NCBI GenBank assembly: GCA_000934665.2
Contig: JYFJ02000902.1
Span: 1-64,000 of the forward strand
DNA from: Catajapyx aquilonaris
Lineage: Eukaryota
DNA: 64,000 nucleotides
Direction: 5' to 3'
How positions within the stretch are numbered: the first letter of the stretch is position 1; each line of letters starts with the position of its first letter. The position numbers were made by a program, and so were the translations under genes. Positions 16,684 through 62,334 of the stretch are shown piece by piece. The notes under the pieces were generated by a model. That model saw nothing but the letters and a program-made list of their open reading frames with translations. It was not told the origin of the DNA and made no database searches.

Positions 16684-18360
<1,677 letters not shown>

Positions 18361-34888: not shown

Positions 34889-36543
34889 TGAAAGACATTA
34901 TATTCGCACAACAATGACCTCCTGTATAGGCGGCCGATTAAAATAACGAAAGAGCTCAGTCGAATCTGCTGCTTGATTGGGCCAATTAGGCACTGCTTTG
35001 GTTGGACACATACCTGGCTTTTGATTTTCATCCATTATTCCACCGGTGCCTATTTCTTGTATACGGAAAAATTTCACGTGCGATTTTCAAGTGTGTTTTG
35101 CAACTTACTCTCCTTTTTTTCGTTGCATGGTAACAGGCTATATGGTCTTAATAATAATAATAGGCCTTCACGTGCACAAACAGTCAATGCAAATAAATGG
35201 AATAAAAAAATAAACATAACCCTATATACACTACACAATAATTCAGATATATACCCCGACCAACATTATTTAAAAGTGAAAAATTAATATTACTATCAAG
35301 TCCATAGCATGTTATAGGACCTATATACAAGGTCGCTTATAGTTTCGCAGTTTAGAGTGACGAGAGCGTGTTTCTAAGAAGGTCAAGAAAATTGTGCCAT
35401 ATTAGCGGGATTTTGCTTGTAAGTAGGCCTATGTCTATTTTTATGTAATCTGCCACTGAAAAAGAAAATCGATTGAAAATGACGAATCAGAATAGTGCAT
35501 GTCAATTGTGGGCGTGGACTAGCCAAAAATTGCGACACAATATGACTGTTGATTATTCTGTGGGATCATGCTTCGTAAACATGCACAGTCTGTCGAGCAT
35601 TCTTGACGCTACTGACTGCAGCAGTATGACCTACTATCGGTTTGCTATTTTTTTTGCACACGTTGTTTTCACACAAACATGCGTTTTTATTTTGTGAATA
35701 ACACTTCTAACGAACATTTTTGCAAAATGTTATTTTCTGATCAGCATTTTTATGACCCTTCCACAATTTGCATGTGAACTTGACCTACATTTTTTTTTGC
35801 GAGTTTGAGATGACTGTCGTGACCACGTGGTCCGTAACTTTTCAACGCCCACAGTACCAACTCTCCTATCCCGTATATCCTAAATAATTAAAGATGAGTG
35901 ACACCTCCCAACTCATAAAGGAAAATTGACTATGCAGAACTAACTCACCGTGATTGATAGATTTCGGGGATCGATGGGCAGTCATTGGATGGCCAAATAA
36001 GCTGCTTGTTGACAGGATCGAGCGCACAATATCGACTGCTGCCAAAGAGAAGCGAGGCCGCTCTTTTCTCAAGCCTCACCTTTTTCACCCCCTCCCGCCT
36101 CCTCTAGACCTTTTTTCTCTCTCTCTCTCTCTATTTCGTTAACCCTATAGTCTGAGGTTGCACGCAAATTCGCGATAAGACCTACAAAAAGACTGCAGGG
36201 GTGTCCAAAAGCCGACACGCCACTTATTAAAACGCACGGGAATTTAAGGGGGAAATAAATTGCGCCGTTCATTTTACACAACAATATAGGGCAATTAGCG
36301 ACGCAAACTCGTCTGGATAAAATTTCTGCAGCACATTTCGGCTGGAAAGTGGCCAGAAAAGTGTTATGTGAACAAATCCGGAAAATCTCTACTGAAAATG
36401 ACATTCAGCCTATAAAATCCAGCACTGCGTTTTTTTATTATTATTATTAAATTTTCAAGCATAATCTCCGCCAAAATTTAGACACTCGTCGCACTTGTCG
36501 CATCGATGTCAAGATTATTTTGGGCACACTTTGGTGACAATCA

Positions 36544-39500
36544 TCAGACAATGGTGGATTCTGGGACAGGGTCTGCTGGAGTGACGGGCCTGCTGTCCGA
36601 TCCTGATGCAATCATCTTACTGCTCTCCTTGCTCCAGGACATGGACATCTGGCGCTTCTTGATCGTCTCCTGGTAACGAATGTTCATGTACCTGGAAGAA
36701 TGAGAAGGTTCAAAAAAAAAGGAGAAGGATTATTTGGGTCAAGCTCCCATGTTCCAGGAAAACACGAGTCCAAATATAGGATAGCCTGTCTGCCGCACTC
36801 TATTCCCACGCTCCAAATTTTTGCGCAGTCAGCCACAGTTCCGCGAATTTAAAACGCCACCCAATTGCACCCATAAACTAATTCCTCAATTAATAAATGG
36901 TTATTCTACGTCAAAGCGTTGGGTTGCATCATGCCAGGATGAAAAATGATAAAAATGTGGCCAGCATACCCTCCAGGCACCTTCCTGAAGGCCTCGTTAC
37001 CCGCAGCGACGTAGTACTTGTTTGGCTTGAGCTGTTCGAGAGCGCATATCTTGGTACCGGACACGGGAGTGTACATCTTGACCAGGTTCTTGCTGGACCC
37101 TCCGGTGGACACCTTCTTGCTGACCATGGACAGAAGGTGCTTCAGGCTCTTCGGAGGCTTCTCCGCCGTCATGGACACGTCCACACCTGGAAAGTACCTG
37201 TCTCCGTTCAGGAACACGGTGATTCGCTTGGTCGACGGGTCCGGTATGCTGCCGGTACTGCTGGTGGTGCCGGTCGTCGACGTGGACGGAAGGATCGCGG
37301 ACACATCGGACGCCGCTGGTGTCTTTGGGCGGATGGTCCGCTGGGTCGGCCTGGCTGGCGTGGACGGTCGGACCATCGTCTTGTTGGGCTTCGTCGTCGT
37401 TGTCTTGGCGGGTGCCACCAGAGGTGTCGGTGTCGTGGACGTATCTGTCGGTGTCGTGTGCTCATCCGGTTGGAAAGTCGGGTCCGGCTCTTTTATTGGC
37501 TCGTGCACGATTGTCGTTTCGTACATGGGCGTCGACTGCACCTCGATTTCACATTCGGACGAGGACGACGGGTCTTCCGGGTACAGCACGTTCAGCTGCA
37601 GGGAGCTTCGCACCAGCTGAGGACGTGATGATCCGGCTGGTTTAAGCACAGGAGGCACGGGCGACACGGCTCCGGAAGTGTGAATCCGCACCCTATAATG
37701 GGCGTCACACAACAATTTATTATAAGTTGCAACAATATTAATATGCGCCTCTATACTAGAGCGGGACTCGTACTGTATGTAATACCTGCAGAGATAATCT
37801 GACGATGCTGCCTGCGTTGCGTTGGCGCAGCTGTGGTTGGGTATGGGCAGCACCCTTCCGTCCTTGGTGACCTCCAGGGTGACCAGCACCTTCCCGAAGG
37901 TCACGATCTCCCTGTCCGTGTCGAATCTCCTCACCAGCCCAGTCTTGAGGACCTCGTACTGCCCCACCTGCCCCTCCCGCTGGGTCAAAGGTCGCAGCTT
38001 CCCAGTGGCCGTGACCTCGAACCGTCCCACCACCTCCTCCCCTGGCTGCACCGGTTCCGCCTCGTCCAGGGGCGGGTACAGGACCAGCCCGTGGGTCATG
38101 TTGATCACCTTACCGCATCCGGTCACGTAGAACTTTCCGAGCAGTGCGTCTGGGATGTACTCTGTCCTGTCCTCGCTGTCCATCTGGTACAGGCGTCCGA
38201 ACCGATTGAACCCGACACGGGCCACCACCTTTCCCTTCATGTCCGGTTGGGGCTTGGCCAGCTGTGGCCTGGCCAGGGGCATCTGGGTCGCCTTCCCGTT
38301 CGAGGTCAGCATGAACCGTCCAAGCAGCGGAAGACTTCTGGCCGAAGACTGGACGTTCATGTACGACGTGATCAGGTACTCCCGAGTGATGGCCAGGTCG
38401 CGGATCGGGACAGGCAACGTCACATCCCGTTGGCTGTTATTATTGGTCCTGGTTTTGCTGCTGCTGTTGCTGTAAGACGAGGCCGTCTGCTTGGTCAGGT
38501 CGAGGTCACCCAGGGACAGGTTGGTCACGCTTCCGCTTCGGTTAATCTGGAAGCGACAGACCACACTGTCCCGAGCTCGTCGGATCAGGGTCGCGTCTGG
38601 ACACAGCTGGACCATCTGGAACTGACGGGTCACCTCGAAGCGGGCCAATGGCGGGTCATCTCTGATGGTAGTGGAAAATAATAAGACGATTGGTTCATTA
38701 TAACAAGTCGATGTGTGTATACCAAGAGCTAGTGGTGTACTATACCTGATGATGAACTGTCCTGTAGGACCGCTGTCGGACTTGTGCTTGTTGCCGAAGA
38801 TGCGTCGAACAAAGGTCTTGGCCCGCTTGGCGAAAGTGTCCGAGTCCTCCACCGGACACAGCCGGTACGCTGTACCGCTGGCTGCGATGGCGTAGTGACC
38901 GGTCAGGGCGGGCTGGTCCATCTGCGACAAGTCCAGGACCTTCCTGGACTCCGTGGGCACCACCTCCAGGTTAGAGGTCAGCATGAAGCGGCCAAGGTCG
39001 TGTCCGAACGGACACAGCTGGCACACTCTGGGCTGGAACTCGATGACGTCTCCGACGCACGACAGGTGGAAGATGCTCAGAACCGGACGGTCCGACGGAA
39101 GTGCGACGATGCAGGCGTCCTCGGTGACTCCGTACCGTCGGACGCAGACGTCGGTCTGTGACATGGCTGGGGACGGAAGCCGCGACGACGGCATCGTCTC
39201 CGAGACATGAAGACGCTTCGTGACGACCTCGCCGTCTTCTCGTAGAGTCAGAAGGCCAAGTACGTCGTCCGGTTCGGCACCGGGTTCCGTCCTTGGCACC
39301 AGTTCCCCGGAAGCTGTGTACATGTAGGTGCCGACGTACCTGCCGTCTTCCTTCGAGCGACGTCGTTTAATATCCAGCTCGTCGGTGGGCATCTCTCCGA
39401 CGCTTCCGTCGCGGTACAGTGTCACCCTCTTCAACATTCTCTCCGGGATCATGTAGTCGGAATGCATCAGATCCACGAAATGCAGGTCCTGGTCCACCCC

Positions 39501-40180
39501 GTACCGGCCGATGATGCTGCAGGTCTCACGAGGAATCGGGTGCGACTCCATGACGGAGTGGTCCAGGACCTGCCGGTGGTATATATACAGTACATACAGG
39601 TAAGCCATTGAACATGTGACAGTGTATATCAAAGACTGACCTTTCCCGACCTGGTGATCGAGAACCGTCCGATGGTACCCTCTGCATCGTTGGGCGTAGA
39701 CGCGTCATCCAGAAGGAACACCTGTCCTTCGCTGTTGAACCCATACGTGGTCATATGCCGCTGATGCGACTGGACCCGTCCGTCTGCGAACAGGTCGAAC
39801 TCTGCCAGCGTACCCTGAGGCACCTCGCTACCAGAGGTCATCCTAGTGACGGTACCGACGACGCCCATAGCGTACCGGCCCAGATGCAACGCCCTGTCCA
39901 TATCCTCAGCAGCGATGCGGCTGACCTCGGGACACTCTCCCAGACTGACCCGGTACAACCCGATAGATCCTGTCCGATCCAACCGACCGCAGACCAACCG
40001 GAACTCGACCTCGTTGGCCGGCATCTCCGTCACATGTCCGTCCAGCCCTATGGAGAATCGCCGGTACGGAGACAACGCCATGGCACTCGCCGATGCCTTC
40101 TTCTCTTCCGAAAGGTCACCGATGTCCCCCGAGTCCTGCGGTAGCTGCTGGGTAGTTGGATAATAGAGACTCGCTGCCAT
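36544..40180 (-). CDS. Beta-hairpin-repeat protein with Thr/Pro-rich linker and a C-terminal DCX domain (~1036 aa if all introns are spliced)
   Basis: Exons 40180-39641, 39569-38746, 38661-37786, 37692-36970, 36691-36544 sum to 3111 nt in frame. DCX: RITVFLNGDRYFPG...YYVAAGNEAFRKVPGGY. Confidence 0.75.
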
Positions 40181-40449
40181 CTAGCTCGAGTCAACCTGCA
40201 ACGGTACGTGCTGAGGGTAAGAATACAATCAGCCTGTAATACGTCACGAAGGTACTTCCCAACCTCTCATTTGGGGGGTTAATCCGATGCGATGAAGATG
40301 AGATCACTGGAATTTAGAACGACGTGTAAATGCGGTCAGTCCCAAAAACCGAAACTGAAACCAAGACTGGAAGTTGTGTGCTGCCAGGCAACGAAACAAT
40401 GCACTGTTGGACATACACTTGCAATTTTTATTATTATTATTATTATTTA

Positions 40450-43400
40450 TTATTTACCCAGTGACCCCCTACGAGTGCCGCCGCTGTTCCTAGTATCCGC
40501 TTTCATACCCAGGGCGGACCCCTGGGCGGACCCCCGACGAGGGCTGCTGGACACTCCACCAGAGTGCCTTCGCTCTTCCCTGCTGAGTCCTTGGATCGAA
40601 CCCTGGTTGGACCCGCGACGAGACCCGCCGTTGTTCTGCTTCCTCTCTCGTTCCTCCTGTTCCCTCTTCTTCCTCTCCTTCTCCTCCTTCTCCGCCTTCC
40701 TCATCTTACCACAACGACAGCATCTGTCCAGCTTGCGAAGACCCAACTTGTTCATGCTCTTTCCACCGGAACCACGACGCTGGAAAAAAAAAAAAAACAC
40801 GCAACAAATGGTCACGTCCTGAACCACATTTCATTAGCGTATAATTAACGCGTCGTTACCTCAGTAGGCTTTGCTGTCTGGGTTGGCGGTGGTCCTTCTC
40901 CGTACGGTACCTGCTCGAACTCTCGTTGGTACACGTTGCCAGCCACGTAGAAGCCGCCGGCACGAAGATCTCGAGCAGACTTCATCACTTCTCCCTCCAT
41001 CGTGTACAGTCTGTCGCGGGGAGATAGAAGAAGAAAAAAACACATTCGTAGCAAACGTCGTTACACTAGCCGGTACAATATAAATTAAAATGATGCATGT
41101 CAAAACTCACTTGTCGCAGAAGCCTTCCCTGGTGCCGTACAGCTTGGAGTTGACCTCCTCCATGACCTTATCCAGGTTTCGAAAGTCCTTGAGCGGTATG
41201 GTGCATCGGACGGCCGGTTGGAACCGGTCTCCGTTGCGATACAGGTAGATTGGCTGCGGCTGGAGCTCCTCAACCTTCTCCATGTACACGGAGCGGACAC
41301 CAGCCAGCGACGGGTGGGATACCTTGCCCTAATTAAGTATATTATGTAATAGGGTCATATACACTGACGGTACACACTTGACATGATGACATCGAGACAC
41401 TCACCGTCTGCGAGCCTCCCATCTGCGAGAGCTTCTGCTGCAGCATCTGCTTCCTGTGTATCTCGTCCTGTATGGCCCTGTACCCTCCCTGTACCGGCCT
41501 GAACCCTTCCGCTCCGGAAGCGACGTACACCTCCCTGGGCAGCAGCGTGGCCAGAGACGACACCTCCAGTCCATCGGCCGTGTACAGATGCTGTACGGGC
41601 AGTCCCATCCGGGCTGTCAGCAAGTCCAAAAGCTGCAGGAAGTTTCGAGGCTCCTGCTTGGACAACGGTACCCGTACCCCTGGCGAGTGCTGGTCCCCGC
41701 TTCGGTGCACCTGGACCCACTTGACGTCCGTGTTGGAGGCATCCTCTTGCATCCCGGAGCCTACCTTGGACATCTGCTCGGCCTGCATGGCCGCGGAGCT
41801 TCCAGGAGGACTGGTGACCACGATGGACACCCGCTCCTGGACCTGCTGCGACTGGGTGATGGCGGACATGGCTGCAGCTTCGGCTATCTCGTCCGCGGCC
41901 TTCTCACTCATTGTTTTATCCTTCATGGCCTTCTCACTCATTGTTCTGTCCTTCATAGCCTTCTCACTCATGGCCTTGTCCTTCATAGCCTTCTCACTCA
42001 TGGCCTTGTCGGCCAACATACCGGACTTGACGACGTCGCTCAGCAAGTCGCTCAGGGCCGTACCGGACGCAGGTGCGCCTTCTTGCGTCGGTGCTGCTGT
42101 CATGCGAGCCATGGCGTACTCGGGAGGTTCCACCATGTCTGCAACACAGAGCAAGAGTTAGGACACCAACAGGAACCAAGAAAAGCCCCTGAATGCCCGT
42201 GACCCTCCACACAAGAGAGGCATATGTGTGGCCCTGAACAGCCAGGATAACAGTGTCAAAAATACAGACGTGGACAGTAGGCTACAGGGTAGCGGGCACG
42301 TGCGTATACACTGTATTTGCACTTGTGAGCATGACCTACCCTCACTGGCCAGCACAGAAGAGCCGGAGCCACCACCAGCAGCGCTGGTTTGGATATTCCT
42401 CTTCGACCTCCCGACATCTTCGTCCAAGTACCTGAATCCAAGCTGACCGTCGAACTCTCCTTCGCTCTCGCCTTTCTGTAGGAGCATACAAGTTTACTAT
42501 AGAGATGACGACACTCTTACTTGAGAATAACATTTGGAAGCAGCAGTTGCAGTGTATGTCGGGATGAACACTACCGTACCTGCTGATCTTGACCAAGCCC
42601 TCTCTCGCGTTGGTCTGAGTCGGCCATGTCCTGCTTCAGTCTCTCGGCCGATTGCGCCGACATCCGTATGTCAGCCGACATCCACTTCTGTCCGTCGGAC
42701 GATTGTTGATTCAGCCTCTGGCCCGTATCCTGGCCACTCAGCCTCTGGCCCGTATCCTGGCCACTCAGCCTACTCTGGCCCGGATCCTGGCCACTCAGCC
42801 TCTCGGCCAATTCCTGTCGCTTCAGACGCTCGGCCGAATCCTGCCCCTTGAGCCTATCAGCCGAATCCTGCCCCTTCAGTCTATCGGACGAATCTTGCCC
42901 CTTGAGCCTATCAGCCGAATCCTGCCCCTTCAGTCTATCGGCTGAATCCTGCTTCAGTTTGTTGGCCTGTAGTTCCAGCGTCCGTTTATCGACCGCCGAC
43001 TCCAGTTCAGTGGACAGCAGCAGTCTCTGCTGAGGGGACTCCTGCTGGGCGGCCTCATCGACCCTTGCCCTTTCCAGGGAAGGAAGAGGACCCGTGTCCT
43101 GGTAGCCCGTACGCTGCTCCGAAGGGATCTTGACCACCCCTCGGGTGGACTCGTGCTGCTGGAGGAGTCTGGCGGTCCTGCTGGACTGTGCCGAAGCCAC
43201 GTTTGCGACAGTGGGCATCTGCGACGGAGGGAGGATGACCGAGGAGGTGATGACGGACTCGCTGGTCCTCTTGCTGCTGCTCCGAAGAGGTTGTTGCGAC
43301 GCAGCAGCAGCAGCAGGCCTCTGCTGTCCCTCTGCTGCGTTTGAAGAATATCCGACCCGGACGAACTCCGCCTCGTGCGTCTCCATCTTCAGCACCTCCG

Positions 43401-44924: not shown

Positions 44925-45544
44925 TCAATGCATGTGTTGAATGTGTTTAAGTAGGCCTTCAATGACATCATCAGGTGTTGCATTGCGCTGATCCCTCTGC
45001 CACATGTTGACAATCATCCTTTGGTTCTCCTTAAGAAGACTTTGAAATGCCTCTTTCTGTGATGCCCTTGCTTCCTGTTCCAGCCTCCCCCGAATCTCGT
45101 ACTCGCTGCGGCGCCCTTGCATTTGTGCCTCCCGAACCTCAGTCAGCCTCTGCCAAATACCTAGTGTATCATTAAGCTTACCCTTTGCTTCTTCAATCGA
45201 CTTTCTCGTATCAGGCAGCTTATTTTGCAATTCGGTATTTAACTTTTCCTCTATTACATCCAGTGTGGATGGATAAATCTTGACCGGGATGAGGCTTTGA
45301 GGGCGTGGCATATTTCTAATGAACTTTTCGACCAGGTTCTCTGTCAACTGGTTCATATGCCTATAAACCAGCTCAGAATGGCAATCCAATGCTTTTTCCA
45401 GCATGGCCTTTTTCTGCGAGAGGCTCAACTTAAAGTACCACTCTTGATGAGCGCTGTCCTCCACTGCAATGGAAGATAATAATTCCTCAATAAACATCTT
45501 AAGATTTCACATGCAGGAAGTTATGCTCCAAAAAGCTGTAACAC

Positions 45545-45628
<84 letters not shown>

Positions 45629-48600
45629 TCCCTTACTCTCTTGCATCCTGCTGCAAAGAAATAACCACTTGTTCAAAGTGACGAACTTTTTGCTTCTTCT
45701 CGAGGACAGAATCGTGGCAGACAACTAAGTTTACTTTTTTGCCATGACATGCAGGGCAACTCCGCAGGTGACATTTTTGGCCTTTTGGCCGGTGGCAAGC
45801 AAAGGTGGATATTTGATGGAAATTGGCTCAATGGCAGGCAGGAACATAGGGAATGTCCAAGAGGTAAAGGAGAGGCAGTGAGAGTGGTCCATACTGACTC
45901 ACAAAATTTCACACCATAGTTTGAAAAATTGTTTAACCAACAGGGAGTTTGTATGCAGTTGTAACTAAGAGTAAGCATCACCATGTGGCTAGGTTGAATT
46001 TTGTTGGATTTGTTTAAAAATTGGAAGCCAACTAATATTTACTTTAGGAACGCAATAATACATTAAATAAGGAGCTGAACACATGTAAAGTGCTATCACT
46101 ATAGCATGGGATACCCACACCAAAATGAGGCCATATCATGTCTGGAAGAAGTCATCATGAGAAACAATGTGAGACGTTACACCATCACATAAACGAATAT
46201 GGCATATGATATGCCAGATAGTGCCACTGAAGGCAGACTGATGTCTGATGGCCAAGGTCACTCTACCTTCTGCAGTGCAAACCTGGCCTTAGACTTGGTT
46301 CCTGCGAATTGTCAACATTCAACCTTCCCACATACAGGAATACCTCCTATAATTTGGCAGATTGAGTTCCCAATCAAAAACAAAGCATCCGCTTCTTTCA
46401 CTTTTTAGTGCTTATAAAAGCCTGACATGTTTATAACATCTTATAATTATATTATGTGCATAATAGCACTATGTCAAAAATGTAAAAATAATGTATTAAT
46501 TAATCCGGTCAGCTGATATGCGCATGTGCACCAAGAGTAATCAAAATGAATTCAAGGCACCCTATTTGTGAAACCCCCACAGTGAGGTATTCCTGTAAAA
46601 ACACTTTCAAACCACTGGCATGCCATTTCTTACATGCACTGGTGTCCTCTGGCGGGGAAGTGATGGTCGCAGTTGATGCTCCCAACTGGCTCTGAGGCAG
46701 TCTTTCTGAGCTGGAAATGTCTTCCTCGTTGCTGTTCGAGAGAGAGCTGATGATCCCTTCCACCGCAGAGGAGATGTTCTCATTTGTTCCAAGTGAAGAA
46801 TAGCTGAATGCTTTCTCAGGCCCAGAGGTGACAGTGGGTAAAGATGTAAGGGTGACAACAACAGGGGAAGTATGCTGCTCCATCTCTGCTTCAAATTGCT
46901 GCCCCTTCTTTCCGTCCCTTGTGTCAGTCTGGATGCTGGAAGGGATAATCACTTCTGGGGATGACTGCGTCCTTGCTCCTTGGCTGGTGGAAGCATCAGT
47001 GTGTTGCTGCATGGGTATGAGATCTACTGCCGCAGAGGCTGGCAGCATGGGTATGGGATCTGTTGCCGCAGAGGCTGGCAGCATGGGTATGGGATCTGTT
47101 GCCACAAAGGCTGGCAGCATGGGTATGGGATCTGTTGCCGCAGAGGCTGGCAGCAAGGGTGTTGATTCATCTGTCAGGTCTATCAATTCAATGCCATCAT
47201 CTTCCTTTGAAGGTTCCAAGATTCGCCTCGATCGTAATCTCCTCTTTCTCGGCCTCTCTATTTGCTCAACTGTATTGCATCCTTGCTTTTGAGTCCCCTG
47301 ATGCTGCCTGTCCGTAGCAGATGTGAAGGAGTCCACTTTCTCATCAGAAGTTCTTTTCTCACACTGCAAATTATGGTAGAGTTTAATTACATTTCATATG
47401 CCATGAGAAAGTAAGAAGTGCTACAGAATGATAAGAAGGTAAAATATTTCCAGATGCTCCAGATATGGCAATATGAAGACAATTCTGCAAAATGCCGCAC
47501 CTGTAGAGGTTCTGCCTGACTCAGCTGAGATGCCTCCAAGCCTTGCGCAGAAGGACTGGTGGTGCCTTTCCCCTCATCCTGGCTGGGAAGAGGCAATGAT
47601 GTTATGGACACAGGACTGTCTTGTTCTTTCTGCTGAGTTGGCGAATGGAGCAGCTCTGCAATAATATCAACAGGTCAGAAGAATAAAGTCCCAATGGCTA
47701 CTTAATGTCAGTAGTTATTGCAAATTGATTCAATGACCCCCAGTCAGTATTTCATCATGTCATTGCAGTACCCATCACTACACTTGCATGCAACACAAAT
47801 GTAAACAATTGGGAGGTGCGGTGGCCGAGATGGTAACATCTCGGCTTGCTGAGTGAAGGGTCCCAGGCTCGATCCCTGGGAGTTCCCTTTCACCTGAGGG
47901 TCTCTGACACGTGCCTTGGAGGTGTATGGCAACCTAACCTCCTGGGGAACAGCACCCCTTTTCCGACATTGCACTTGTACCTATGTTCCCTCCCCAAAAA
48001 TCCCCATCTTTACCCTATGTCCTTGATTCCTTGCACTGGAGAGTGAAAAAAACTACACACACTAAAAAACTGATGGTGGTGTGCCACCCCCCTATAAGGG
48101 CTTAGAGCTCTATCATGGGGCTGTAAAAAATGTAAACAATTTTTTTCATTATTGCGAAATTGCAGCGTATTTCATGTCGAGCAATCTGCCATAACTCTGA
48201 CCACAATTTGTAACTGAATGCAATCGTCACAGGCACATGCTGTGGCTGGCGATATATGGAAGGTCTTCAGGATGTTTCAATATTAAACACTGGCTTAATG
48301 GAGATCTTTTCTGCATTCTCAGTTCAAAATCCATGACCCATAATCTGGTGCCCTGCATTTTTGTTTAAATAAATCATGGACAAACCTTGTGGACAGCTGG
48401 AGTAAGCAAAAGTGACACTATCACAAGCCAAAAATGTGCCAACTGTGACTTCTTGCAAATTCAAGGGCATTTTATCAAAACCTCTGCTGCCTATGGAGAG
48501 TTGGGTGTAGGATATGTGGTTCCCAACAATATCAAACTCCCCTTTCACTACTGACCTTGTGAGGGTTTCTTCTTAGTTTGACCCGCAGTCCTTGACTTTG

Positions 48601-51600
48601 CTTGGTCTGCCTCAGACTCCTTCACCACGGGTCCAGGCTTGGGCTGCTTATGGAAAATCAGCTTATCTGCATTGTCACTTTGTTTCACTCCCCAATGAAA
48701 CTGCTCGGCAATCCCTTCATTAGCAGCTGCAGCTGTGTTGGCTGCTTCTTCCACTGGAGAATCACTTTTTGCTCGATCGGCCTGCTGTTGTTGGGCATTA
48801 TCATCAGTGGCCTTCTCACACAGGGTGGTCAACTTCCTTGGGCGACCTCTCCTCTTTTCCACAACTGGATCAAGTTCCTGCATCTCTTCCTCAAGGTCAC
48901 CTTGGCTCTGAGTTGTTTGTAGGTCACTAGCCATTATCTCAGGTGTCAGGTTCTTTTTTTTGGGATGTGTCTTGGTGACAGTGAGCTTTCGGTTACCCCT
49001 CTTGGGCTTTAGATACCTTTTCCTCCTAGGCTTTGAGGCCCTTGGTTTCTGAACACTTGCGTTCTCCTTGTCTTCATTGACATTCAGATCATCACTGAAA
49101 GTGTAGCTTTTTCCAACAGCCTCAGCCATGGTCAGTAGCTTCTTCTTACTGGGTGCAGATACTGGCTCCCATCCACCCCATTTCTGCCCTGGAACCGGAT
49201 ATGTTGGGCTGCTACTCTTCTCTGTAGATGTCTCATTTTTCTCAGTCCCACTGGCAAGGTTTTGGCTTGTATTTTGGCTTGCATGAGCAGTTGGACTGGC
49301 ATTTGAATTGCTGCTCACCTTGTTGTCAAGGCTGCTCTTTGGACTCACTCTTGGAGAGCAGCATTCCGCAACAATAGGAGAGGTGCTTCTCATGTCAGGA
49401 GTACCATTGGCCACGTCCTGGAACAGCATGGCAGTAGGATCCCTTCCACGTACTGATCTCTCGCTTGCACTGCTAGTCACTCTGCGTCCTGCATTGCGGT
49501 TTTCCTCGGATGCAACGTATGCATGATCCTTATGTACATTTCTTATAACCTGATCAGTTGACACAACATCAACTGAATTGTGATCCTCGACTGATTGCTC
49601 AGTTTTCCTCCTCTTGTTCAGGTCCATTTTCATCCCTTCCTGTCTTGCTCTCTTTCTTTTGCTACTACCCTCCTCAATTTCTTCCTCAGCATCACTGATG
49701 TCTGAGTAATGTGTTTCAGGATGCTGAAGAGGTCTGGGACCTGCAACATTTGGCAATGCCTGGTCCATTGTCTCCTGTGATAGTGGCATAACATATGGCA
49801 TCCTGAAGGTTGAGGGATCCAGGCTGGCCTTGGGTTGCTTGGGATGTACTAACAACTCTTCAGAGGCACACTGGCTTGATGGTACACTTGGTCGGTGGTA
49901 TGGATGAAAACCCACTGGATTATGGTGTGGTAGAAAGTAAGGCATTGGCCTGTGGACTGGCAACTTCTTCTTCCAATATGGGTCAGATGGTGGAAACAGA
50001 TTTCCAAGGCTGGTGGCCTGCAACATGTTATGCTATTAATTTTAAAAAGTCATAATATATTATAGCTCTGTCAAGAATAGCAATGGAATCACAAAGTAAA
50101 TAGAGCCCTTTCAGTGAAAGAATGCCATGATATCACATATCATATCACTGCACACTATTTTTTGCCGGACGGGAGGATCTGAAGGGGATGACTATATCTC
50201 TCTAACAATGAATGACCCCCCCACCCACAATTCCCATCAGAATGATGAGTCACCATGCAACCTGAAAGTCCCAAATGTACCATGATGTCACAGATCCTCT
50301 CTCGCACTGAAATTAGTAGGCAGTAGTGACTTTTCGTGTGACAAGATTGTAGAACTTGTTTGTCCCCCATTGATTTAAATTCACCTGATATTAAATTAAT
50401 AATGAAATCCTTATGTTGTATAACATGTTATTTTTTAATTCAGTGTAGTACATTGAGATCAATGTAAAATGGCTGTTACTCTGCTACAATGATCTTATGT
50501 GGCAGAATATAGCAATCTTATGACATCCACTAGCACATTGCGCACATCGAGCAGAGACATCAGTCCAATCCATCTTTTTGCTTGTGATTGTACATCACAA
50601 AATTTGCTTATATGAAGTAGGCAATGGAGCAGTAACTAAAAATAATCATTTTCAGGTTTTCCGATGTCTGTTACAAAGTGTACTACAAAATTTTCAAGGC
50701 TGAAATGTAGGTGCCAATGGCTTTCAACTCCAACCTCAATGGATAATTAACATCACGGCCAAAACTGCATACTAACAGCAGTCATGACAGATCATTACAC
50801 ACAAGCCACTACTTCCACATGGAGGATTTACTGAATTACTTAATGTACAGTAATTATACTGAAGGTGTTCTTGCCATCAAAAAAATCACATAATGTGGAG
50901 GTTCTCACAGCAGTGATGAAAAACATCCTCAAGTACTGTAGGTAAAAGACTCACCCCATGGGAAGAATACTCTGAGGCTGTGGTGTAGCCGTCCTGTGAA
51001 CATCTGTCCATTTCCGATACTGAGACACTCTCCTGAGAATACTGATCACTCACTGGCATTGCATTCACTGACACACTATTTTCATAGTTCCCAACAAAAC
51101 TAGCTAGTGCCTTCTGAAGGTGTTCATAAGCAGTGCTAATGCCAATGGAAAGCAGGTCCAAATGTATGGTCAGGGAGTTTCCCTGTGGGCAGGAGCCAAG
51201 GAATGGAAGCAAAGTGTGATCCAGAAGGTGTGCAACATTGCACTTCACCTGCAAAAAGTAGGTTAAATAGAATGTGAAGACAAAATTAATTCACTCATTC
51301 ATAGTGTTTGCCTAACTAAAGTCTGATTAGTTTTCTAGAATTTTTGAAGCATACATGCCAGTCATAAAATGAACCAGAAAAATTTGATACCCTAGTTGGA
51401 AAAGTATGTAATACTTTGGAATAAATACTTTTAGACTACTCAGTTACTGTGCAGAGAATGCAGAGTTTCTATCTTTAGCTGTTCAAGGCAGATCATATTT
51501 ATTGGTAGAATGTCCTTAGCATGTTATCAATGCCACCATTACCATCAATTAAGACATGCATCACAAATGCTACAATGGCAGCTCGAAGACATACAATTAC

Positions 51601-54600
51601 AATGGCAGCTAGAAGTCAATTCCCATGGCAAAACTTTAGTGTTTCTCCACAAAGCCAAAATGTTTCTATAGTACCAGATGACAAACGTTCGTTTGATGTC
51701 ATGGTAGGGTGAGCTAACTCTCTAAATATTCATTGCCATTAAAAAATGATGACCAACCTCCACTGAGATGTACAGGTGAGGATTGTCTGAAGACAATTTC
51801 CCACACATCCACAGCTTTTTTACTCGATCTGCGCCCATAATGAACCCCGGGGTCAACCCTCTTCCTTCTCCTCCACTCTCGGCTGCTAGATTTTGGCTGG
51901 GGGTCATTGCAGCATCTGCAGCCAGGTTTCTGCATGCTATGGTCAAGGTCCGCATCTCCAAATTTATGTCCATGTACCAAGGGATGTTTGCATCATCATG
52001 TGGGCGTTCCAAATCGTAGGTACCCACTCTAGCCAAGCAGATTGCAAGTGAATGCACAGTCCGTCTGGCATAGTCCTATAAAAAAAAAGTTTACCACATC
52101 AGTAGGTGAGAAAGAAAATAACTCAGCAATTATTTCAAGCACACTGTAGCACTTGAAGGAGAGATCTGTTTTGTAAAAGTCATGATTTCAGAAAGCAGAG
52201 AAGCATAATTGCAAACTTTCATGTGATGGTCATAAACTTTCACACTGGAATCATGATGATTGTGATTATTTATGCAAAACAGAAGCATGCTACAGCGTTT
52301 GCATTTATGGGAGCTGTAGGAGGAGAATGGGTGACCTTGTAACAGATAATATTTTAAGGTAAATTGTCTCCAGTAGACCAGGGGTGGAATTTTCGTCCCA
52401 CTGATAGCCACTGCTAACTTAGCAGTACCAGTGTTGGCAATGGTACTGATAAGTTAGCAGTGACTATCAGTGAGACGAAAATTCCACCCCAGGTTTTATC
52501 GGTCAAAATTATCAAATCATTATTTATTACAGCTGTTATTCTAATTACAGCTGTTGTTAATTTAATGCTTCTTTCAGTGCTTGACATTTTTACAAACAAG
52601 AGAAAATCCCATTCGTTATTGAGCTAATGTCAGGACATACTTTCAGCCCATTGAGGTGGTTCAAAAAGATTCGGCAATCATGACCAAGGCAGATAGACTC
52701 TTGAGGGAATATCTTGCACAAATCCATGGCATTTGGAAACCATCTCTTCAAACATTCAGGAATCTCGTTCTGCCGTTCACATTCAGGCACAGCATAAACT
52801 AAGAAGCGCAGCGCTGTCTCTTGGAATTCGAAGTCTCCCAGCTGTGGCAGGCAGGCGGCCACTTCACACCTGGAATGGAAATGCGAGTTATAAATATTAG
52901 AACATTTCAATTGCTTAAATCTCAACTTACTGCTATTTGCTTTTAAAAAAATCTCATCTGACCACAGTATAATAAAAACTTGCTTAATTATTGCATAGCT
53001 CATTTTCCAGGTACTTGACAGTTATCCAGATGTGTCAATTAATTTGAACAACTGTTCAGTAGTTATATTTCAATCTTCACACCTTTGTATGGTACTCCAA
53101 GTCTGCCACCACCCTTTGATCTACATTTCCCCTTGAAAAATTGGAAAAATTAATACTACTTTTGCATTAATTTTCAATCCAGCTTACATTTGACAGTATA
53201 TGTTGCAAATGGTGAAATAGGTGATTATTATCTGCTATGAAAATATATACAGTATCTTTACAGTGAAATTAATGAGAAATTTGGAACTTCTTACTCAATA
53301 AAATTACTCCCTATGCTGGGATCACAAGTTCTTGAGAAATAATGTTCAGGCAAGAATTTAATTTGGTAGAAAAAAATTAATTCTTGCAGACAAAATCACA
53401 ATTAAATTTTTAAAAACCTCTCAGCCTCTTCAGTTTTTGTAGCTTTTTTGGGGGGGGACCCAAGAAAGCAGAGGGGGATGTTAGAAATGGTAATAATAAA
53501 TATATTGCAGCCCAAGATTTTCTTGCAAACATGGGTTCTCATAGGTTTTCAAACCCACCTTTAATACAACATGAGTAATGTACACTGTAATGCACTATAA
53601 GGACACAATTAATCCGCGGGCTCCAAGATTAAAAGGGGGAATAGAGTCAGCACCACCCAAGACGCAGGGGCCTAGTACTACGGTATGTTAACACACTATG
53701 AAAAACTGAATATCTTACAACTTGTTGGAGAGGTGCTTGTTGATGTGCACTGCAGCATACGGCTTCAGTATAATTATGAGCCCATGGAGGAGCATCATAG
53801 CAGACTTGCGACCCTTTGGGAGTATCCTGTGATCTACAACCACGTTGAGTAGATCTTTCCAAATTTCTGCTGTAGCATTAGTTAACATCTCTGTATCCCC
53901 ACTGAGTTGGTACACCATGATGAACATCCTGTGGTACTCCTTCCACAGAGGCTCCACATCTTCAAGGGGGTACGTGCAATTGTACAAGATCTTAATAGTC
54001 CAGCTGAGAAGGCTACCAGCGATCTTGAGCAAATGTGGTACTGAATGTTCGGTTAGCAGGGAATCTTTCTGAGCACGATCAAGGTAGCAGCAGACATCCA
54101 CCGCTTCCTTTGGGGTCAGATGGTTAATCTGAAAGATGATGCAATAGCAAGCATATGAAGGTAACAAGAAGTGATACAATCATGATGCAAAGGCCTGAAA
54201 ATATTTCACACACAAATGCAAAGAATGCCACATGAACCAAGCACACCTTTCACCATGTCTGATTTTCACCAAAACCAGTATTTTGTAGCACCAAGGCCAA
54301 GGCAGGTGTGTAAGCATATTAGAATCAGTATTAAAACTGCAGGGTGATTCTCCCGAATTGAAACCCAAACATTCCTCAATAACTTTTTAACTATGGTATG
54401 GTTCCAAATGAAAATGGACATGTACTTACCTTGTATCATGCCAAACAAGGTCTGACTAAAGAATATATACCAAAAGTGGTCCCCTCTAGCATCCAAGAAT
54501 TTTTAAATGAGAGTCTGCATATTGCTGAAGACTCCTGCAGATTGGCGGCGGGAATGGCTCAATCTCCGCCCGCCCGCCTGCTCCGTTGCCTTGAGATGCC

Positions 54601-55773
54601 CTCTCGCCAAGCAGGTGGTCCGGTGGGAGATGGATGGCATCCCCGCCTTCAATCAGCAGGAGTCTTCGGCAATATGCAGACTCGCATTTAAAAATTCTTG
54701 GAAGCTGGAGGGGACCACTTTTGGTATATATTCTTTAGTCAGTCCTTGTTTGGCATGACACAAGGTAAGTACATGTCAATTTTCATCGGGAACCATAGCA
54801 TAGTTAAAGTTATTGAGGAATGTTCGGGTTTCCATTAGGGAGAATCACCCTGAACAAACCCAGCACTGCCTTATCTGAATGCAACTCACAACTCAGAGCA
54901 ATAACTGAGCATGATAATAAGCCTAGCTGGCAGACACGCAGTTATCATAATTATGTCATTCACTTGTACATAAGGTAATGGGATCGCACAAATTATGACA
55001 TGCACAGCATGGAAACTTCACGTCTTGCCAGGCCTCTAACATACCGAAGTTACAGTGTCAGTGAGTTGTCCTGAGTGGGCAGCATTTAGATAAGTTGGTG
55101 GGTGGGATCTGCCTTTTAGCAGAACAGAGAGCACAATAGCTTGTTTGTCCTTATTTGCATCAACTACACAGGGTGCAACAAGTACACATTTGCAATTTTG
55201 CTCAATTGCACTATAGTGGAGGCCTGTAAAACCCAGAAAACTACAACATATCTGGATGGGTGACATTGGAAACTCTGGTACAGCCAATATGATAATGGCA
55301 TTTGGTGATATCCTCCAAGGTGTAATCATGCCAACCCAATAAGTGAGGGGGAGAATCCTGGCTATTGGCTTCCAGCACAGGAGGAGGATGAAAATCCCAC
55401 CTAAAATTCAGCAAGCAGAAGACCCATCTCCCCACCCCTACCCTCAATTCATAATAAATGATAAATAAATAGAACAGATTGAGGAACAACAACTCGGCCC
55501 ACCAACAAGTGTTCGAAACTTGAATTGCATGACTTCTTGAGGGCCTGTTCCATCTGTGTCCCACGGATAACATGAGATGAGTGCAGATTCCAGCTAGAAA
55601 TGCAGCTTGAAATGGAACATAAGATGAGTGCGGGAGAGGTCACTCACCCTGGTGGAATAGTGGAGGGCCTCGCAAAGGAGGGTCAGCTGCGTCCCGTGTG
55701 GGGTGGTTCTCCCTTGCTTCAGGTGGTTCAGGATGTCCCTGAGCTTTCTGGGTGCCATTTGACCCCGTTTCAT
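44925..55773 (-). CDS. SYCP2: SYCP2-like meiotic chromosome-axis protein (armadillo-like + PH/Spt16M-like N-terminus, long disordered region, C-terminal coiled coil), ~1515 aa
   Basis: Eleven phase-consistent GT-AG exons: 55773-55648, 55593-55503, 55223-55045, 54128-53719, 52869-52641, 52075-51758, 51248-50955, 50032-48556, 47655-47501, 47363-46634, 45463-44925. GDFEFQETALRFL...RWF...DCRIFLNHLNG...RTVHSL...YDLERP...WYMDINL matches remembered vertebrate SYCP2 GDYELQ...WF...DCRIFLNLVNG...RRVFTF...YELQIP...FWIDFNL. Confidence 0.8.
45546..45627 (+). repeat. (AAT)n microsatellite, about 27 units
   Basis: Directly visible perfect trinucleotide run in the last SYCP2-like intron. Confidence 0.97.
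47010..47152 (-). repeat. 36-bp coding minisatellite (about 4 x MLPASAATDPIP) in the SYCP2-like gene
   Basis: gcagaggctggcagcatgggtatgggatctgttgcc repeated in tandem. Confidence 0.9.
47811..48130 (+). mobile_element. tRNA-derived SINE (second family); 3' end approximate
   Basis: A box tggccgagatgg and B-box-like ggctcgatccc; the head is shared with 60886-60965. Confidence 0.65.
52381..52490. repeat. Near-perfect 50-bp-stem palindrome (MITE or hairpin RNA) in a SYCP2-like intron
   Basis: ggggtggaattttcgtcccactgatagccactgctaacttagcagtacca pairs with tggtactgataagttagcagtgactatcagtgagacgaaaattccacccc; 10-nt loop. Confidence 0.85.
54340..54852. mobile_element. Palindromic MITE with ~210-bp inverted arms and Tc1/mariner-like CAGGGTG termini
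   Basis: CAGGGTGATTCTCCC...GGGAGAATCACCCTG; the arms are highly complementary; the TA target duplication is not intact. Confidence 0.8.
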
Positions 55774-55968
55774 GGCCGGAGGAGTGGATGGAACAGGACC
55801 CAGCAGACCGAATAGACGGGAGCGCGGAAAAAAACACCTCTCCCTCAAACGGGTCCGGCGGCCATCTTGGTTGAAAATGGAACGTTCCACGTCACCAGCA
55901 CCAGCTCTGGCCAATCAGGTGGCCCGTTGCAAAGCACTTCCGCCCATCATAAAAATTATCCGATTAAA

Positions 55969-56012
<44 letters not shown>

Positions 56013-61149: not shown

Positions 61150-61656
61150 CTAATGTTCCTTGTAGCCAAACCGGACACTGCTTGCTTTCTCGGTGCTATC
61201 CCTGGCTACGTACACTATTAAAAAGTACAATTCAGCGATTGCAACAATTAGTGCGCTTGCAATTCCCAGTAGCAGCCTTACCCCCATGTCCAGTACTTGA
61301 CCCCAGATCAGAGCAGACCCATGAAATCCAAAAACAAAGGCAGCGGCAAGGGAAATAACAAACTGAACCACTGCCACCACCTGCTTGTTCATTGCTTTTA
61401 ACTGTGACCCTATACTTTCAGTGCCGCATGTTCTCCTGCGATACTGGTCCCGTAAGTGTGCTAAGCGCGCCTGCCAATGCGGGTTTGGGGCAGAAGGCGG
61501 TGCAGGGGTCAGCGCTGCAGGCAGTGTTATGGAAGATCCCAGTAAGGAAGCATGAAGAGGCGCAGGCAATCCAGACTTGCGGATGTCTCGCAATCTGGCT
61601 GCAGTCAGGGCTTCTGGCAGTGATGGACAACAAGGATTGACAAGTACGGCGGACAT
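61150..61656 (-). CDS. TMEM199: TMEM199/Vma12 V-ATPase assembly factor (168 aa from ATG 61656)
   Basis: LHASLLGSSITLP...PNPHWQARLAHLR...IGSQLKAMNKQVVAVVQFVISLAAAFVF...RLLLGIASALIVAIAELYF parallels remembered human LHELLEGSEIYLP...RNPELVARLEKIK...LGKQV...FIVTVVAAFV...VVGLAELYV; two C-terminal hydrophobic segments; AATAAA at ~61073-61078. Confidence 0.9.
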   Translation of the reverse strand: MSAVLVNPCCPSLPEALTAARLRDIRKSGLPAPLHASLLGSSITLPAALTPAPPSAPNPHWQARLAHLRDQYRRRTCGTESIGSQLKAMNKQVVAVVQFVISLAAAFVFGFHGSALIWGQVLDMGVRLLLGIASALIVAIAELYFLIVYVARDSTEKASSVRFGYKEH

Positions 61657-62334
61657 TATTTCTGCATTTGGTCCTCCAGTTGCGAGTAGTACCTGAAAGT
61701 TACACATTAGTCTTTTATTCTCCAGACAAAGTGTCCAGCTTTACCCTCTGAGCTGCAGCTCTTTGTCTCTGAATGCGTTGTCGACCCGGACCGATTTCTC
61801 TCCAGTGTCATGCAGAAATTTGTCCCACTCTTGTTCCCTCTGCACCCGCCTCTCGCCGAGTATGGCTTCCGTGTCTATCCGTGCGGAAGCAGCAATCTTC
61901 TGGGCCATGGACGAAGCCACTTGCAGGCAGGTAGATAACGGAGGTAGGTGGGCCTCGCTCAATGACGACAGCCGGTCCAGAAGCTGCCCCTCGCGAAGTT
62001 CAGTCACCCGCTCGAGCACTGCGAACAACCGCTCAACTTCACGCTCACCCCGCTTTTCCTGCAACAACAACAACAATTTACAACAGTCAACAACCACTGC
62101 CAAATCTCTACCAAACACATGTAAAATTAAATTAATCCGGCTGAATACTTGCCGGCCATTTGTACCTCAAATTCCTTTAGGAAATATGTGATTTCTCCGC
62201 TGAGGAACGGTCTGTGGTCGAACAGACGCGAATGTATCTCGCCAATATCTGCAAAACGCCACAACATGAAGGCTACAAAACTGGAACAAAACCACACCAA
62301 AAAAATAATACCAACCCTTGAAAATGGCGGCCAT
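61656..62334 (-). CDS. BLOC1S5: BLOC-1 subunit 5 (Muted), 150 aa, 4 exons
   Basis: Exons 62334-62316, 62248-62166, 62058-61745, 61692-61656 give MAAIFKDIGEIHSRLFDHRPFLSGEITYFLKEFEEKRGERE...EWDKFL...VDNAF...LRGYYSQLEDQMQK*, matching the Muted signature KDLGEIHSRLLDHRP...FVKEFEEKRG. Confidence 0.93.

What the first reader, a model, noticed from the sequence alone, without database searches (positions are those of the whole stretch)
44925..55773. Full-length SYCP2-like meiotic axis gene in an invertebrate, hidden as scattered short ORFs
Seen: eleven canonical, phase-consistent exons give ~1515 aa with a helical N-terminus, the block DFEFQ...WF...DCRIFLNHLNG...WYMDINL, a long S/T/P/K-rich middle and a terminal coiled coil. 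Known: this order and size match vertebrate SYCP2 (~1500 aa; armadillo-like domain, PH/Spt16M-like domain, disordered region, coiled coil) of the Red1/Rec10/ASY3/SYCP2 family, which evolves fast and has no recognisable orthologue in Drosophila or C. elegans. Inference: this lineage retains the ancestral metazoan axis protein, informative for synaptonemal complex evolution in arthropods.
Basis: partly seen in the sequence, partly recalled or inferred. Interest (0 to 1): 0.75.

Follow-up and report, generated by a model that had tools for sequence, protein, structure and literature searches.

The report
Probable SYCP2-type meiotic axis gene
A real, intact nine-exon gene for a 1,420-residue protein that is most likely this invertebrate's version of the meiotic chromosome-axis protein SYCP2, a fast-evolving protein already known from insects and other invertebrates.

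Summary
The gene is real. On the minus strand, 55773-44925, I rebuilt a GT-AG, phase-consistent model. The quoted motifs are present.

No statistically significant match to SYCP2 was obtained. Spliced proteins could not be handed to the search tools, so every test ran on single exons. Three independent weak-to-moderate lines agree:
- Exon 3's best match among 177,635 PDB sequences is mouse SYCP2 (5IWZ, residues 212-274, E 0.34).
- The neighbours are EF-1α, ZSWIM1-3-like and Muted/BLOC1S5-like genes. Their human counterparts lie beside SYCP2 (20q13) and SYCP2L (6p24).

Pfam gave nothing per exon. The PH-like part did not fold. A crude heptad test did not confirm the terminal coiled coil.

SYCP2 orthologues are already characterised in Bombyx and reported for other insects, molluscs and cnidarians. 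This is therefore a probable new member of a known kind. Confidence ~0.78; interest low to moderate.

The parts
55648..55773 (-). Exon 1: ATG at 55773, 126 nt, residues 1-42, donor gtgagt
   Evidence: An in-frame stop lies 53 codons upstream with no ATG between.
53719..54128 (-). Exon 2: 410 nt, residues 43-178, armadillo/HEAT-like helical repeat
52641..52869 (-). Exon 3: 229 nt, residues 179-255, holds GDFEFQ...WF...DCRIFLNHLNG
   Evidence: Acceptor ttccag and donor gtatgt. Top PDB sequence hit is 5iwz_A (mouse SYCP2), residues 212-274, E 0.34, 14.5 bits.
51758..52075 (-). Exon 4: 318 nt, residues 256-361, holds WYMDINL and a low-complexity loop. Presumed first half of the PH-like domain.
   Evidence: Acceptor ttatag; the donor gttggt is weak. 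The fold of this exon alone failed (pLDDT 40.2). No SYCP2 hit in the PDB or the Atlas.
50955..51248 (-). Exon 5: 294 nt, residues 362-459. Presumed second half of the PH-like domain, then the start of the disordered region.
   Evidence: Acceptor tttgcag and donor gtgagt. PDB search gave only a noise hit (L22, E 0.85).
48556..50017 (-). Exon 6: 1,462 nt, residues 460-946, S/T/P/K-rich disordered region with basic clusters
   Evidence: Lies in a 494-codon stop-free frame; acceptor gttgcag, donor gtcagt. Composition and KRKR/KRRK/RRKR clusters.
47501..47655 (-). Exon 7: 155 nt, residues 947-998
   Evidence: Acceptor attgcag, donor gtgcgg; keeps phase 1 to 0.
46634..47363 (-). Exon 8: 730 nt, residues 999-1241. 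Includes a 36-nt x 4.2 tandem repeat at 47009-47160, giving a 12-residue peptide repeat.
   Evidence: Acceptor tttgcag, donor gtaaga. Tandem repeat.
44925..45463 (-). Exon 9: 539 nt, residues 1242-1420 plus the TGA stop; charged, helix-prone C-terminal domain
   Evidence: Acceptor attgcag. An X5 contig ends exactly at 45463. The heptad test scored no better than shuffles.
55774..55930 (-). Promoter-like region: YY1-like AAGATGGCCGC at 55868, TGACGTGG at 55894, ATTGG box further upstream
   Evidence: Motif scan and sequence. These are consensus matches only; function was not tested.

Best explanation
This is an intact, single-copy, nine-exon gene for a 1,420-residue SYCP2-type meiotic chromosome-axis protein.

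Inferred mechanism, by analogy with the family:
- The N-terminal ~400 residues form an armadillo-like helical repeat (exons 1-3) followed by a PH/Spt16M-like module (exons 4-5). This part docks the protein on the cohesin/chromatin axis and centromere proteins.
- The ~780-residue disordered, basic-cluster-rich middle carries nuclear localisation signals and probably a closure motif that recruits a HORMA-domain protein.
- The helical C-terminal ~180 residues bundle with an SYCP3-type partner into the filament core of the axial/lateral element.

What is shown: the gene model; the helical-repeat fold of exon 2; the motif-level similarity of exon 3 to mouse SYCP2; the disordered middle; the neighbouring genes.

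What is inferred: family membership, the PH fold, all binding partners and meiotic expression.
For: Gene model:
- Nine GT-AG exons, phase-consistent, giving 4,263 nt with no internal stop.
- Exon GC 0.49 against 0.34-0.44 in the introns.
- A contig of run X5 ends exactly at the exon 9 acceptor. Its remaining 63 nt match the depth of the bin that holds the end of exon 8.

Sequence:
- I searched seven exons against 177,635 PDB sequences. Exon 3's best hit is mouse SYCP2 (5iwz_A, residues 212-274, E 0.34, 14.5 bits).
- By my count from the printed alignment, 24 of 67 query positions are identical, including GD.E.Q, WF and DCRIFLN..NG.
- A random top hit would be this one entry about once in 177,635 searches.

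Structure:
- The single-sequence AlphaFold2 model of exon 2 has pLDDT 78.3 and pTM 0.71.
- That rmsd is the lowest among the ten best rows. Model 1-128 maps onto chain 54-183 with almost no net gap.

Collinearity: our residues 43-170 match mouse 54-183, and our 187-253 match mouse 212-274. The order is the same, with similar distances from the N-terminus.

Architecture: a folded N-terminal ~400-460 aa, a ~780-aa disordered middle and a ~180-aa helix-prone tail, 1,420 aa in all. Mouse SYCP2 has 1,500 aa and Bombyx SYCP2 1,800 (PMC10151401, passages). This is the ARM-PH-coiled-coil topology used as the family criterion (PMC8131943, passages).

Synteny:
- The window also holds EF-1α (16825-18348), a ZSWIM1-3 RNaseH-like ORF (E 2.1e-16), DCX-domain ORFs and a Muted/BLOC1S5-like ORF (E 2.7e-16).
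- Human SYCP2 lies at 20q13.33 (PMC8935243, table 2).
- EEF1A2 lies at 20q13.3 and EEF1A1 at 6q14.1 (PMC3251850, abstract).
- SYCP2L lies at 6p24.2 (PMC10712833, passage).
- BLOC1S5 lies at 6p24.3 (PMC11290530, passages).
- ZSWIM3 lies within 50 kb of UBE2C in a paper on a 20q13 locus (PMC5619914, passage).

Weak similarity is expected for this family. Plain blastp with mammalian SYCP2 found no Bombyx homologue; PSI-BLAST was needed (PMC10151401, passage).
Against: - No statistically significant match was obtained. E 0.34 lies within the range of unrelated best hits for the other exons: 0.037 tail fibre, 0.056 complexin, 0.22 NDUFV2, 0.85 L22, 1.7 PI3K-C2α, and none for exon 2.
- Pfam hmmscan of the exons or their ORFs gave no SYCP2 family, even at E up to 10.
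- The protein collection does hold eukaryotic proteins. Yet exon 2 and exon 3 found no relative by word search, and exon 3 found none of 1.84 billion representatives at E <= 0.001.
- Atlas look-alikes of exon 2 were generic HEAT/ARM families, not SYCP2.
- The PH-like part is untested: exon 4 alone gave pLDDT 40.2.
- Heptad regularity in the last exon is no better than in shuffles.
- The synteny argument rests on Pfam family hits to neighbouring ORFs, not on proven orthology.
Confidence: 0.78

Rival explanations
1. A lineage-specific nuclear protein with an armadillo/HEAT-like N-terminal repeat and a long disordered tail, unrelated to SYCP2. The DCRIFLN-type motif match and the 5IWZ structural rank would then be coincidence.
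For: - No significant profile or sequence match.
- E 0.34 is in the noise range of the other exons.
- Atlas look-alikes are generic HEAT/ARM families.
- No heptad signal in the tail.
Against: - Coincidence would have to explain three things at once. The top PDB hit of exon 3 is the one SYCP2 entry of 177,635. Exon 2 best superposes, by rmsd, on the directly preceding part of the same chain. The gene sits among EF-1α, ZSWIM1-3-like and Muted-like neighbours, whose human counterparts flank SYCP2 and SYCP2L (PMC8935243, PMC3251850, PMC10712833, PMC11290530).
- Overall size and domain order fit the family.
Confidence: 0.15
2. Not one functional gene. Either it is a decaying pseudogene, or two neighbouring genes (a folded N-terminal gene from exons 1-5 and a disordered or helical gene from exons 6-9) were wrongly joined by the model.
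For: - No RNA run is on record for the organism, so only one junction (exon 8 to exon 9) has any read support, and that is by inference.
- The exon 4 donor, gttggt, is weak.
Against: - All nine exons are open. All eight introns are GT-AG and keep phase across 4,263 nt.
- Exon GC is raised over intron GC throughout.
- There is no in-frame ATG-led start with a promoter-like region in front of exon 6. The promoter-like motifs and the upstream in-frame stop lie in front of exon 1.
- A spliced contig exists in run X5.
Confidence: 0.05

Closest known systems
Mouse SYCP2 (PDB 5IWZ, N-terminal residues 1-394: armadillo-repeat-like domain plus Spt16M-like/PH domain)
   Same: - Exon 3 aligns to residues 212-274 with the shared GD.E.Q / WF / DCRIFLN..NG motifs.
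- Order and spacing are the same.
- Total length is similar: 1,420 against 1,500 aa (PMC10151401).
- Both are linked to an EF-1α gene: the human pair lies at 20q13.3 (PMC8935243, PMC3251850).
   Different: - Sequence identity is too low for a significant E-value.
- There is no Pfam hit per exon.
- The PH-like half and the coiled coil are unverified.
- By my recollection only, not tested here, the folded part of the vertebrate gene is split into many more exons than the five seen here.
Bombyx mori SYCP2 (1,800 aa; PMC10151401)
   Same: - It is an arthropod SYCP2-type protein, found only through iterative searches via insect SYCP2-like proteins.
- It has ARM and PH domains, then a closure motif, a long middle and a C-terminal coiled coil.
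- This is the same kind of weak similarity to mammalian SYCP2 as seen here.
   Different: - The Bombyx protein is about 380 aa longer.
- It has experimental support: axis staining and two-hybrid binding to SYCP3 and HOP1. Nothing of that kind exists here.
Red1 / Rec10 / ASY3 / KKT17-18 (the wider SYCP2-type family of Tromer et al. 2021, PMC8131943)
   Same: The ARM-PH-coiled-coil topology and the role as the axis-core scaffold that recruits HORMA proteins. The role is inferred for this gene.
   Different: These are far more divergent and were only linked by profile-profile searches.

Membership tests
SYCP2-type axis proteins (SYCP2/Red1/ASY3; criterion of PMC8131943) | N-terminal armadillo-like helical repeat | tested here: met
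SYCP2-type axis proteins | Specific sequence similarity of the N-terminal domain to SYCP2 (significant profile or sequence match) | tested here: inconclusive
   Exon 3's top PDB hit is 5iwz_A, residues 212-274, but at E 0.34. Exons 1, 2, 4 and 5 gave no SYCP2 hit. Only single exons could be tested.
SYCP2-type axis proteins | Match to Pfam's SYCP2 ARLD and SLD models (family names recalled by me, not shown by any search) | tested here: inconclusive
   No SYCP2 family appeared at E up to 1 for eight ORFs or at E up to 10 for five exons. These were fragments of split domains, and HMMER's filters drop most matches above about 0.1.
SYCP2-type axis proteins | PH / Spt16M-like domain directly behind the helical repeat | tested here: inconclusive
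   The domain would be split between exons 4 and 5. Exon 4 alone folded with pLDDT 40.2. The Atlas gave no usable hit.
SYCP2-type axis proteins | C-terminal coiled coil | tested here: inconclusive
   The last exon is charged and helix-prone, with 52- and 37-residue stretches free of Pro/Gly. My crude a/d heptad score was reached by 0.645 (28-residue window) and 0.670 (35-residue window) of 200 shuffles. No proper coiled-coil predictor was on hand.
SYCP2-type axis proteins | Long disordered linker between the N-terminal domain and the C-terminal helices | tested here: met
   Residues 461-1241 have S 12.2%, T 7.6%, P 9.1% and 20% hydrophobic residues, with basic clusters.
SYCP2-type axis proteins | Closure motif binding a HORMA-domain protein; multimerisation with an SYCP3-type partner | not testable with these tools
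   No genome is held for the window, so no SYCP3 or HORMAD gene could be sought. The closure motif has no searchable model here.
SYCP2-type axis proteins | Expression in meiotic germ cells | not testable with these tools
   No run on record as RNA holds the stretch. One spliced contig is present in run X5, whose kind is not on record.
SYCP2/SYCP2L orthology group | Conserved linkage with the genes that lie beside SYCP2 and SYCP2L in vertebrates | tested here: met
   EF-1α, ZSWIM1-3-like and Muted/BLOC1S5-like ORFs lie within about 6-37 kb. Human positions come from PMC8935243, PMC3251850, PMC10712833, PMC11290530 and PMC5619914. The neighbours are identified at family level only.

The most novel reading that the evidence does not exclude
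The gene sits in a ~50-kb block (EF-1α, ZSWIM1-3-like, DCX-domain genes, SYCP2-like, Muted/BLOC1S5-like) that may preserve, in an arthropod-like invertebrate, the linkage later duplicated into the human 20q13 (EEF1A2, ZSWIM1/3, SYCP2) and chromosome 6 (EEF1A1, DCDC2 by recall, SYCP2L, BLOC1S5) paralogons. If that holds, position rather than sequence could be used to find, or to show the true loss of, this very fast-evolving axis protein in lineages such as Drosophila, where sequence searches fail.
Probability: 0.35. Interest if true: 0.4.

Novelty: new member of a known kind. Interest (0 to 1): 0.27.

Why it matters
SYCP2-type proteins form the core of the meiotic chromosome axis. They evolve so fast that orthologues are routinely missed or left as 'uncharacterized' in annotations. 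A correct nine-exon model adds one more invertebrate sequence for profile building. Its linkage to EF-1α and BLOC1S5-type genes offers a positional handle on orthology.

It does not change the picture. SYCP2 is already known to be ancient in animals and present in insects (PMC10151401, PMC4132317, PMC8131943). The loss or extreme divergence in Drosophila and C. elegans is the exception, not this gene.

Tried and rejected
- Word-index protein search with exon 2 (longer proteins): 127 candidates, none at E <= 0.01. With exon 3: 2 candidates, none at E <= 10.
- Full phmmer of exon 3 against 1.84 billion representatives: 0 hits at E <= 0.001.
- A control with the EF-1α exon returned 8,000 hits, including many named eukaryotic proteins. 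So the collection does hold eukaryotes, and the blanks reflect divergence and short queries.
- Pfam per ORF and per exon: no SYCP2 family.
- Atlas: exon 2 gave generic HEAT/ARM clusters with low recognition. Exon 4 gave no usable hit.
- Foldseek of the exon 2 model against the PDB: 0 matches at E <= 0.001, only designed helical repeats.
- Fold of exon 4 alone: pLDDT 40.2, unusable, so it was not searched.
- Complex prediction with exons 3, 4 and the first 62 residues of exon 5 as separate chains, to see whether the split domain reassembles: no answer (score 0.00; controls not run).
- Sequencing runs: no RNA holder listed. Four DNA rows come from one sample that may be the source of the window, plus one run of unknown kind.
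- No whole genome is held, so SYCP3 and HORMAD partners could not be sought.
The X5 contig argues for a direct junction.
- Earlier notes of this scan: nothing on this genome, this sequence or SYCP2.
- Spliced (joined) protein sequences could not be handed to any search or folding tool, so every homology test was limited to single exons.
Full report
**The observation**

On the minus strand between 55773 and 44925 lie stop-free frames of 494, 294, 193, 154, 143, 134 and 117 codons. Reading the DNA and joining in a script, I obtain nine exons:

| Exon | Window coordinates |
|---|---|
| 1 | 55773-55648 |
| 2 | 54128-53719 |
| 3 | 52869-52641 |
| 4 | 52075-51758 |
| 5 | 51248-50955 |
| 6 | 50017-48556 |
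| 7 | 47655-47501 |
| 8 | 47363-46634 |
| 9 | 45463-44925 |

- All eight introns are GT-AG with pyrimidine-rich acceptors. Only the exon 4 donor (gttggt) is weak.
- Phases fit throughout. The coding sequence is 4,263 nt, giving 1,420 aa.
- Exon GC is 0.49, against 0.34-0.44 in the introns.
- The ATG at 55773 is the first one after an in-frame stop 53 codons upstream. It is preceded by YY1-like and CRE-like motifs.
The exon count (eleven) and length (~1,515 aa) are not reproduced.
- A systematic search for in-phase exons between exons 8 and 9 gave only candidates with poor sites.

**Read evidence**

No run on record as RNA holds the stretch. Run X5 has no kind on record and carries the same species label as the DNA runs. 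It contains a 248-nt contig whose positions 64-248 lie on 45463-45279 and end exactly at my exon 9 acceptor.

The depths in the three bins (0.22, 1.54 and 0.6, at a contig depth of 3.8) equal 23, 162 and 63 nt. So the remaining 63 nt lie in 46505-46905, where exon 8 ends at 46634. I read this as a spliced exon 8-exon 9 contig. That is an inference from arithmetic; the joint is not among the listed rows.

The DNA run X1 also shows that introns 1, 3 and 6 carry very high-copy repeats at 54124-54925, 52119-52519 and 47708-48108.

**What could and could not be tested**

This weakens every test, because the folded domains are split among exons 1-5.

**Sequence tests**

- Pfam gave no SYCP2 family for eight ORFs at E <= 1 or for five exact exons at E <= 10.
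- The word-index search found nothing for exon 2 or exon 3 among longer proteins.
- phmmer of exon 3 found none of 1.84 billion representatives at E <= 0.001.
- The collection does hold eukaryotic proteins: the EF-1α exon of this window returned 8,000 hits with named animal and plant entries.
- The gene is therefore strongly diverged from anything catalogued there, and the species' own annotation is not in it.
- This fits the family's record. Blastp with mammalian SYCP2 found no Bombyx homologue, and PSI-BLAST was needed (PMC10151401, passages read).

Against the 177,635 distinct PDB sequences, I searched seven exons:

| Exon | Best PDB hit | E-value |
|---|---|---|
| 1 | NDUFV2 | 0.22 |
| 2 | none | - |
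| 3 | mouse SYCP2 (5iwz_A, residues 212-274), 14.5 bits | 0.34 |
| 4 | PI3K-C2α | 1.7 |
| 5 | ribosomal protein L22 | 0.85 |
| 6 | a phage tail fibre | 0.037 |
| 9 | complexin | 0.056 |

The exon 3 alignment shares GD.E.Q, WF and DCRIFLN..NG. By my count, 24 of 67 query positions are identical.

The E-value alone is noise-level. What counts is which entry came first: one specific entry out of 177,635.

**Structure tests**

- Exon 2 folded well from a single sequence: pLDDT 78.3, pTM 0.71, five helices.
- Foldseek found only designed helical repeats, with a best E of 0.056.
- Its rmsd is the lowest among the ten best rows, and the two ranges are almost equally long.
- The matched segment lies directly in front of the segment that exon 3 matches by sequence. 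Our 43-170 maps to mouse 54-183, and our 187-253 to mouse 212-274.
- Exon 4 alone did not fold (pLDDT 40.2), so the PH-like half is untested.
- The Atlas gave generic HEAT/ARM look-alikes for exon 2 and nothing for exon 4.

**Architecture**

- Residues 1-460 have ordinary globular composition, with 34% hydrophobic residues.
- Residues 461-1241 are S/T/P/K-rich with 20% hydrophobic residues. They carry the basic clusters KRKR, KRRK, RRKR, a bipartite-like stretch and RKRR.
- The last 179 residues are charged and helix-prone.
- A crude a/d heptad score in that tail was no better than shuffles, so the coiled coil is not confirmed.
- The order ARM, presumed PH, linker, helical tail is the topology that Tromer et al. 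use to recognise SYCP2-type proteins (PMC8131943, passages read).

**Synteny, an independent line**

Pfam on the neighbouring ORFs found:
- a PRDM-type PR domain with C2H2 fingers (10839-13132, +);
- a ZSWIM1-3 RNaseH-like domain (23345-24565, +; E 2.1e-16);
- three DCX-domain ORFs (34442-42157, -);
- Vma12-like and Muted/BLOC1S5-like ORFs (61153-62166, -; E 1.8e-14 and 2.7e-16).

EF-1α lies at 16825-18348 (-).

| Human gene | Position | Source |
|---|---|---|
| SYCP2 | 20q13.33 | PMC8935243, table 2 |
| EEF1A2 | 20q13.3 | PMC3251850, abstract |
| EEF1A1 | 6q14.1 | PMC3251850, abstract |
| SYCP2L | 6p24.2 | PMC10712833, passage |
| BLOC1S5 | 6p24.3 | PMC11290530, passages |
| ZSWIM3 | within 50 kb of UBE2C, in a paper on a 20q13 locus | PMC5619914, passage |

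DCDC2 at 6p22 is my recollection only. Both vertebrate SYCP2 paralogues thus share chromosomes with counterparts of this gene's neighbours. That is what orthology predicts. The neighbours are identified at family level only.

**Organism**

The nearest listed EF-1α proteins are insect ones:
- 97-98% identity over the first exon, against 95-96% for a coral, a bivalve and amphioxus;
- a wasp, a moth and a fly are the named hits among the five best over all three exon blocks.

'Invertebrate, probably arthropod' is reasonable but weakly supported.

**Verdict**

The most likely reading (about 0.78) is an intact SYCP2-type axis gene. The main rival (about 0.15) is an unrelated ARM-repeat nuclear protein. 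A mis-joined gene or a pseudogene is unlikely (about 0.05).

It is not novel in kind:
- SYCP2 relatives in invertebrates were reported in 2014 (PMC4132317, passages).
- The family is ancient in eukaryotes (PMC8131943).
- Bombyx SYCP2 has been characterised cytologically and by two-hybrid assay (PMC10151401; also PMC12360503, passages).

The useful products are a corrected nine-exon model and the linkage observation.

Noticed in passing
window 16825-18348 (-): EF-1α gene in at least three exon blocks. The nearest listed proteins are insect EF-1α (97-98% over the first exon). No 100% match was listed, so the species' own protein was not among the 120 best rows.
   Followed up: partly
window 10839-13132 (+): PRDM-type gene: a PR/SET domain (PRDM2_PR, E 2.4e-14) split over two ORFs, followed by C2H2 zinc fingers. 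Which PRDM it is was not determined.
   Followed up: no
window 22859-24565 (+): Long ORFs with a ZSWIM1-3 RNaseH-like domain (E 2.1e-16). This could be a domesticated or active MULE-type transposase relative.
   Followed up: no
window 34442-34897, 36909-39704, 41345-42157 (-): Three ORFs each carry a doublecortin (DCX) domain, including one uninterrupted 932-codon ORF in GC-rich DNA (0.52-0.59). They may be one large multi-DCX gene or a tandem family.
   Followed up: no
window 61153-61740 and 61744-62166 (-): Vma12/TMEM199-like and Muted/BLOC1S5-like ORFs lie directly adjacent on one strand, in different frames, about 6 kb upstream of the SYCP2-like start.
   Followed up: partly
window 47708-48108, 52119-52519, 54124-54925: Intronic repeats with word depth up to 85,294 in DNA run X1, against about 25 for unique sequence. 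This suggests thousands of copies. The first looks tRNA-derived (SINE-like). The third is present as inverted copies within intron 1, with many joints between them in the contigs.
   Followed up: partly
window 47009-47160: A 36-nt unit repeated 4.2 times (93% matches) inside exon 8. It encodes a 12-residue proline-rich repeat in the disordered region.
   Followed up: partly
window 45546-45627 and 55969-56010: Perfect trinucleotide microsatellites: (ATA)27 in the last intron and (ATT)14 just upstream of the promoter-like region. Contigs of the DNA runs break at both.
   Followed up: no
window 27527-30537 (-): Three long ORFs (394, 323 and 292 codons) have no Pfam hit. They carry a repeated peptide module of roughly 60-90 residues ending in a GGFLCSPGFRPLFMI-type motif. 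This is an unexplained repeat protein.
   Followed up: no
window 55868-55894 (-): A YY1-like AAGATGGCCGC and a TGACGTGG motif lie 95-120 nt upstream of the ATG of the SYCP2-like gene. These are consensus matches only.
   Followed up: no
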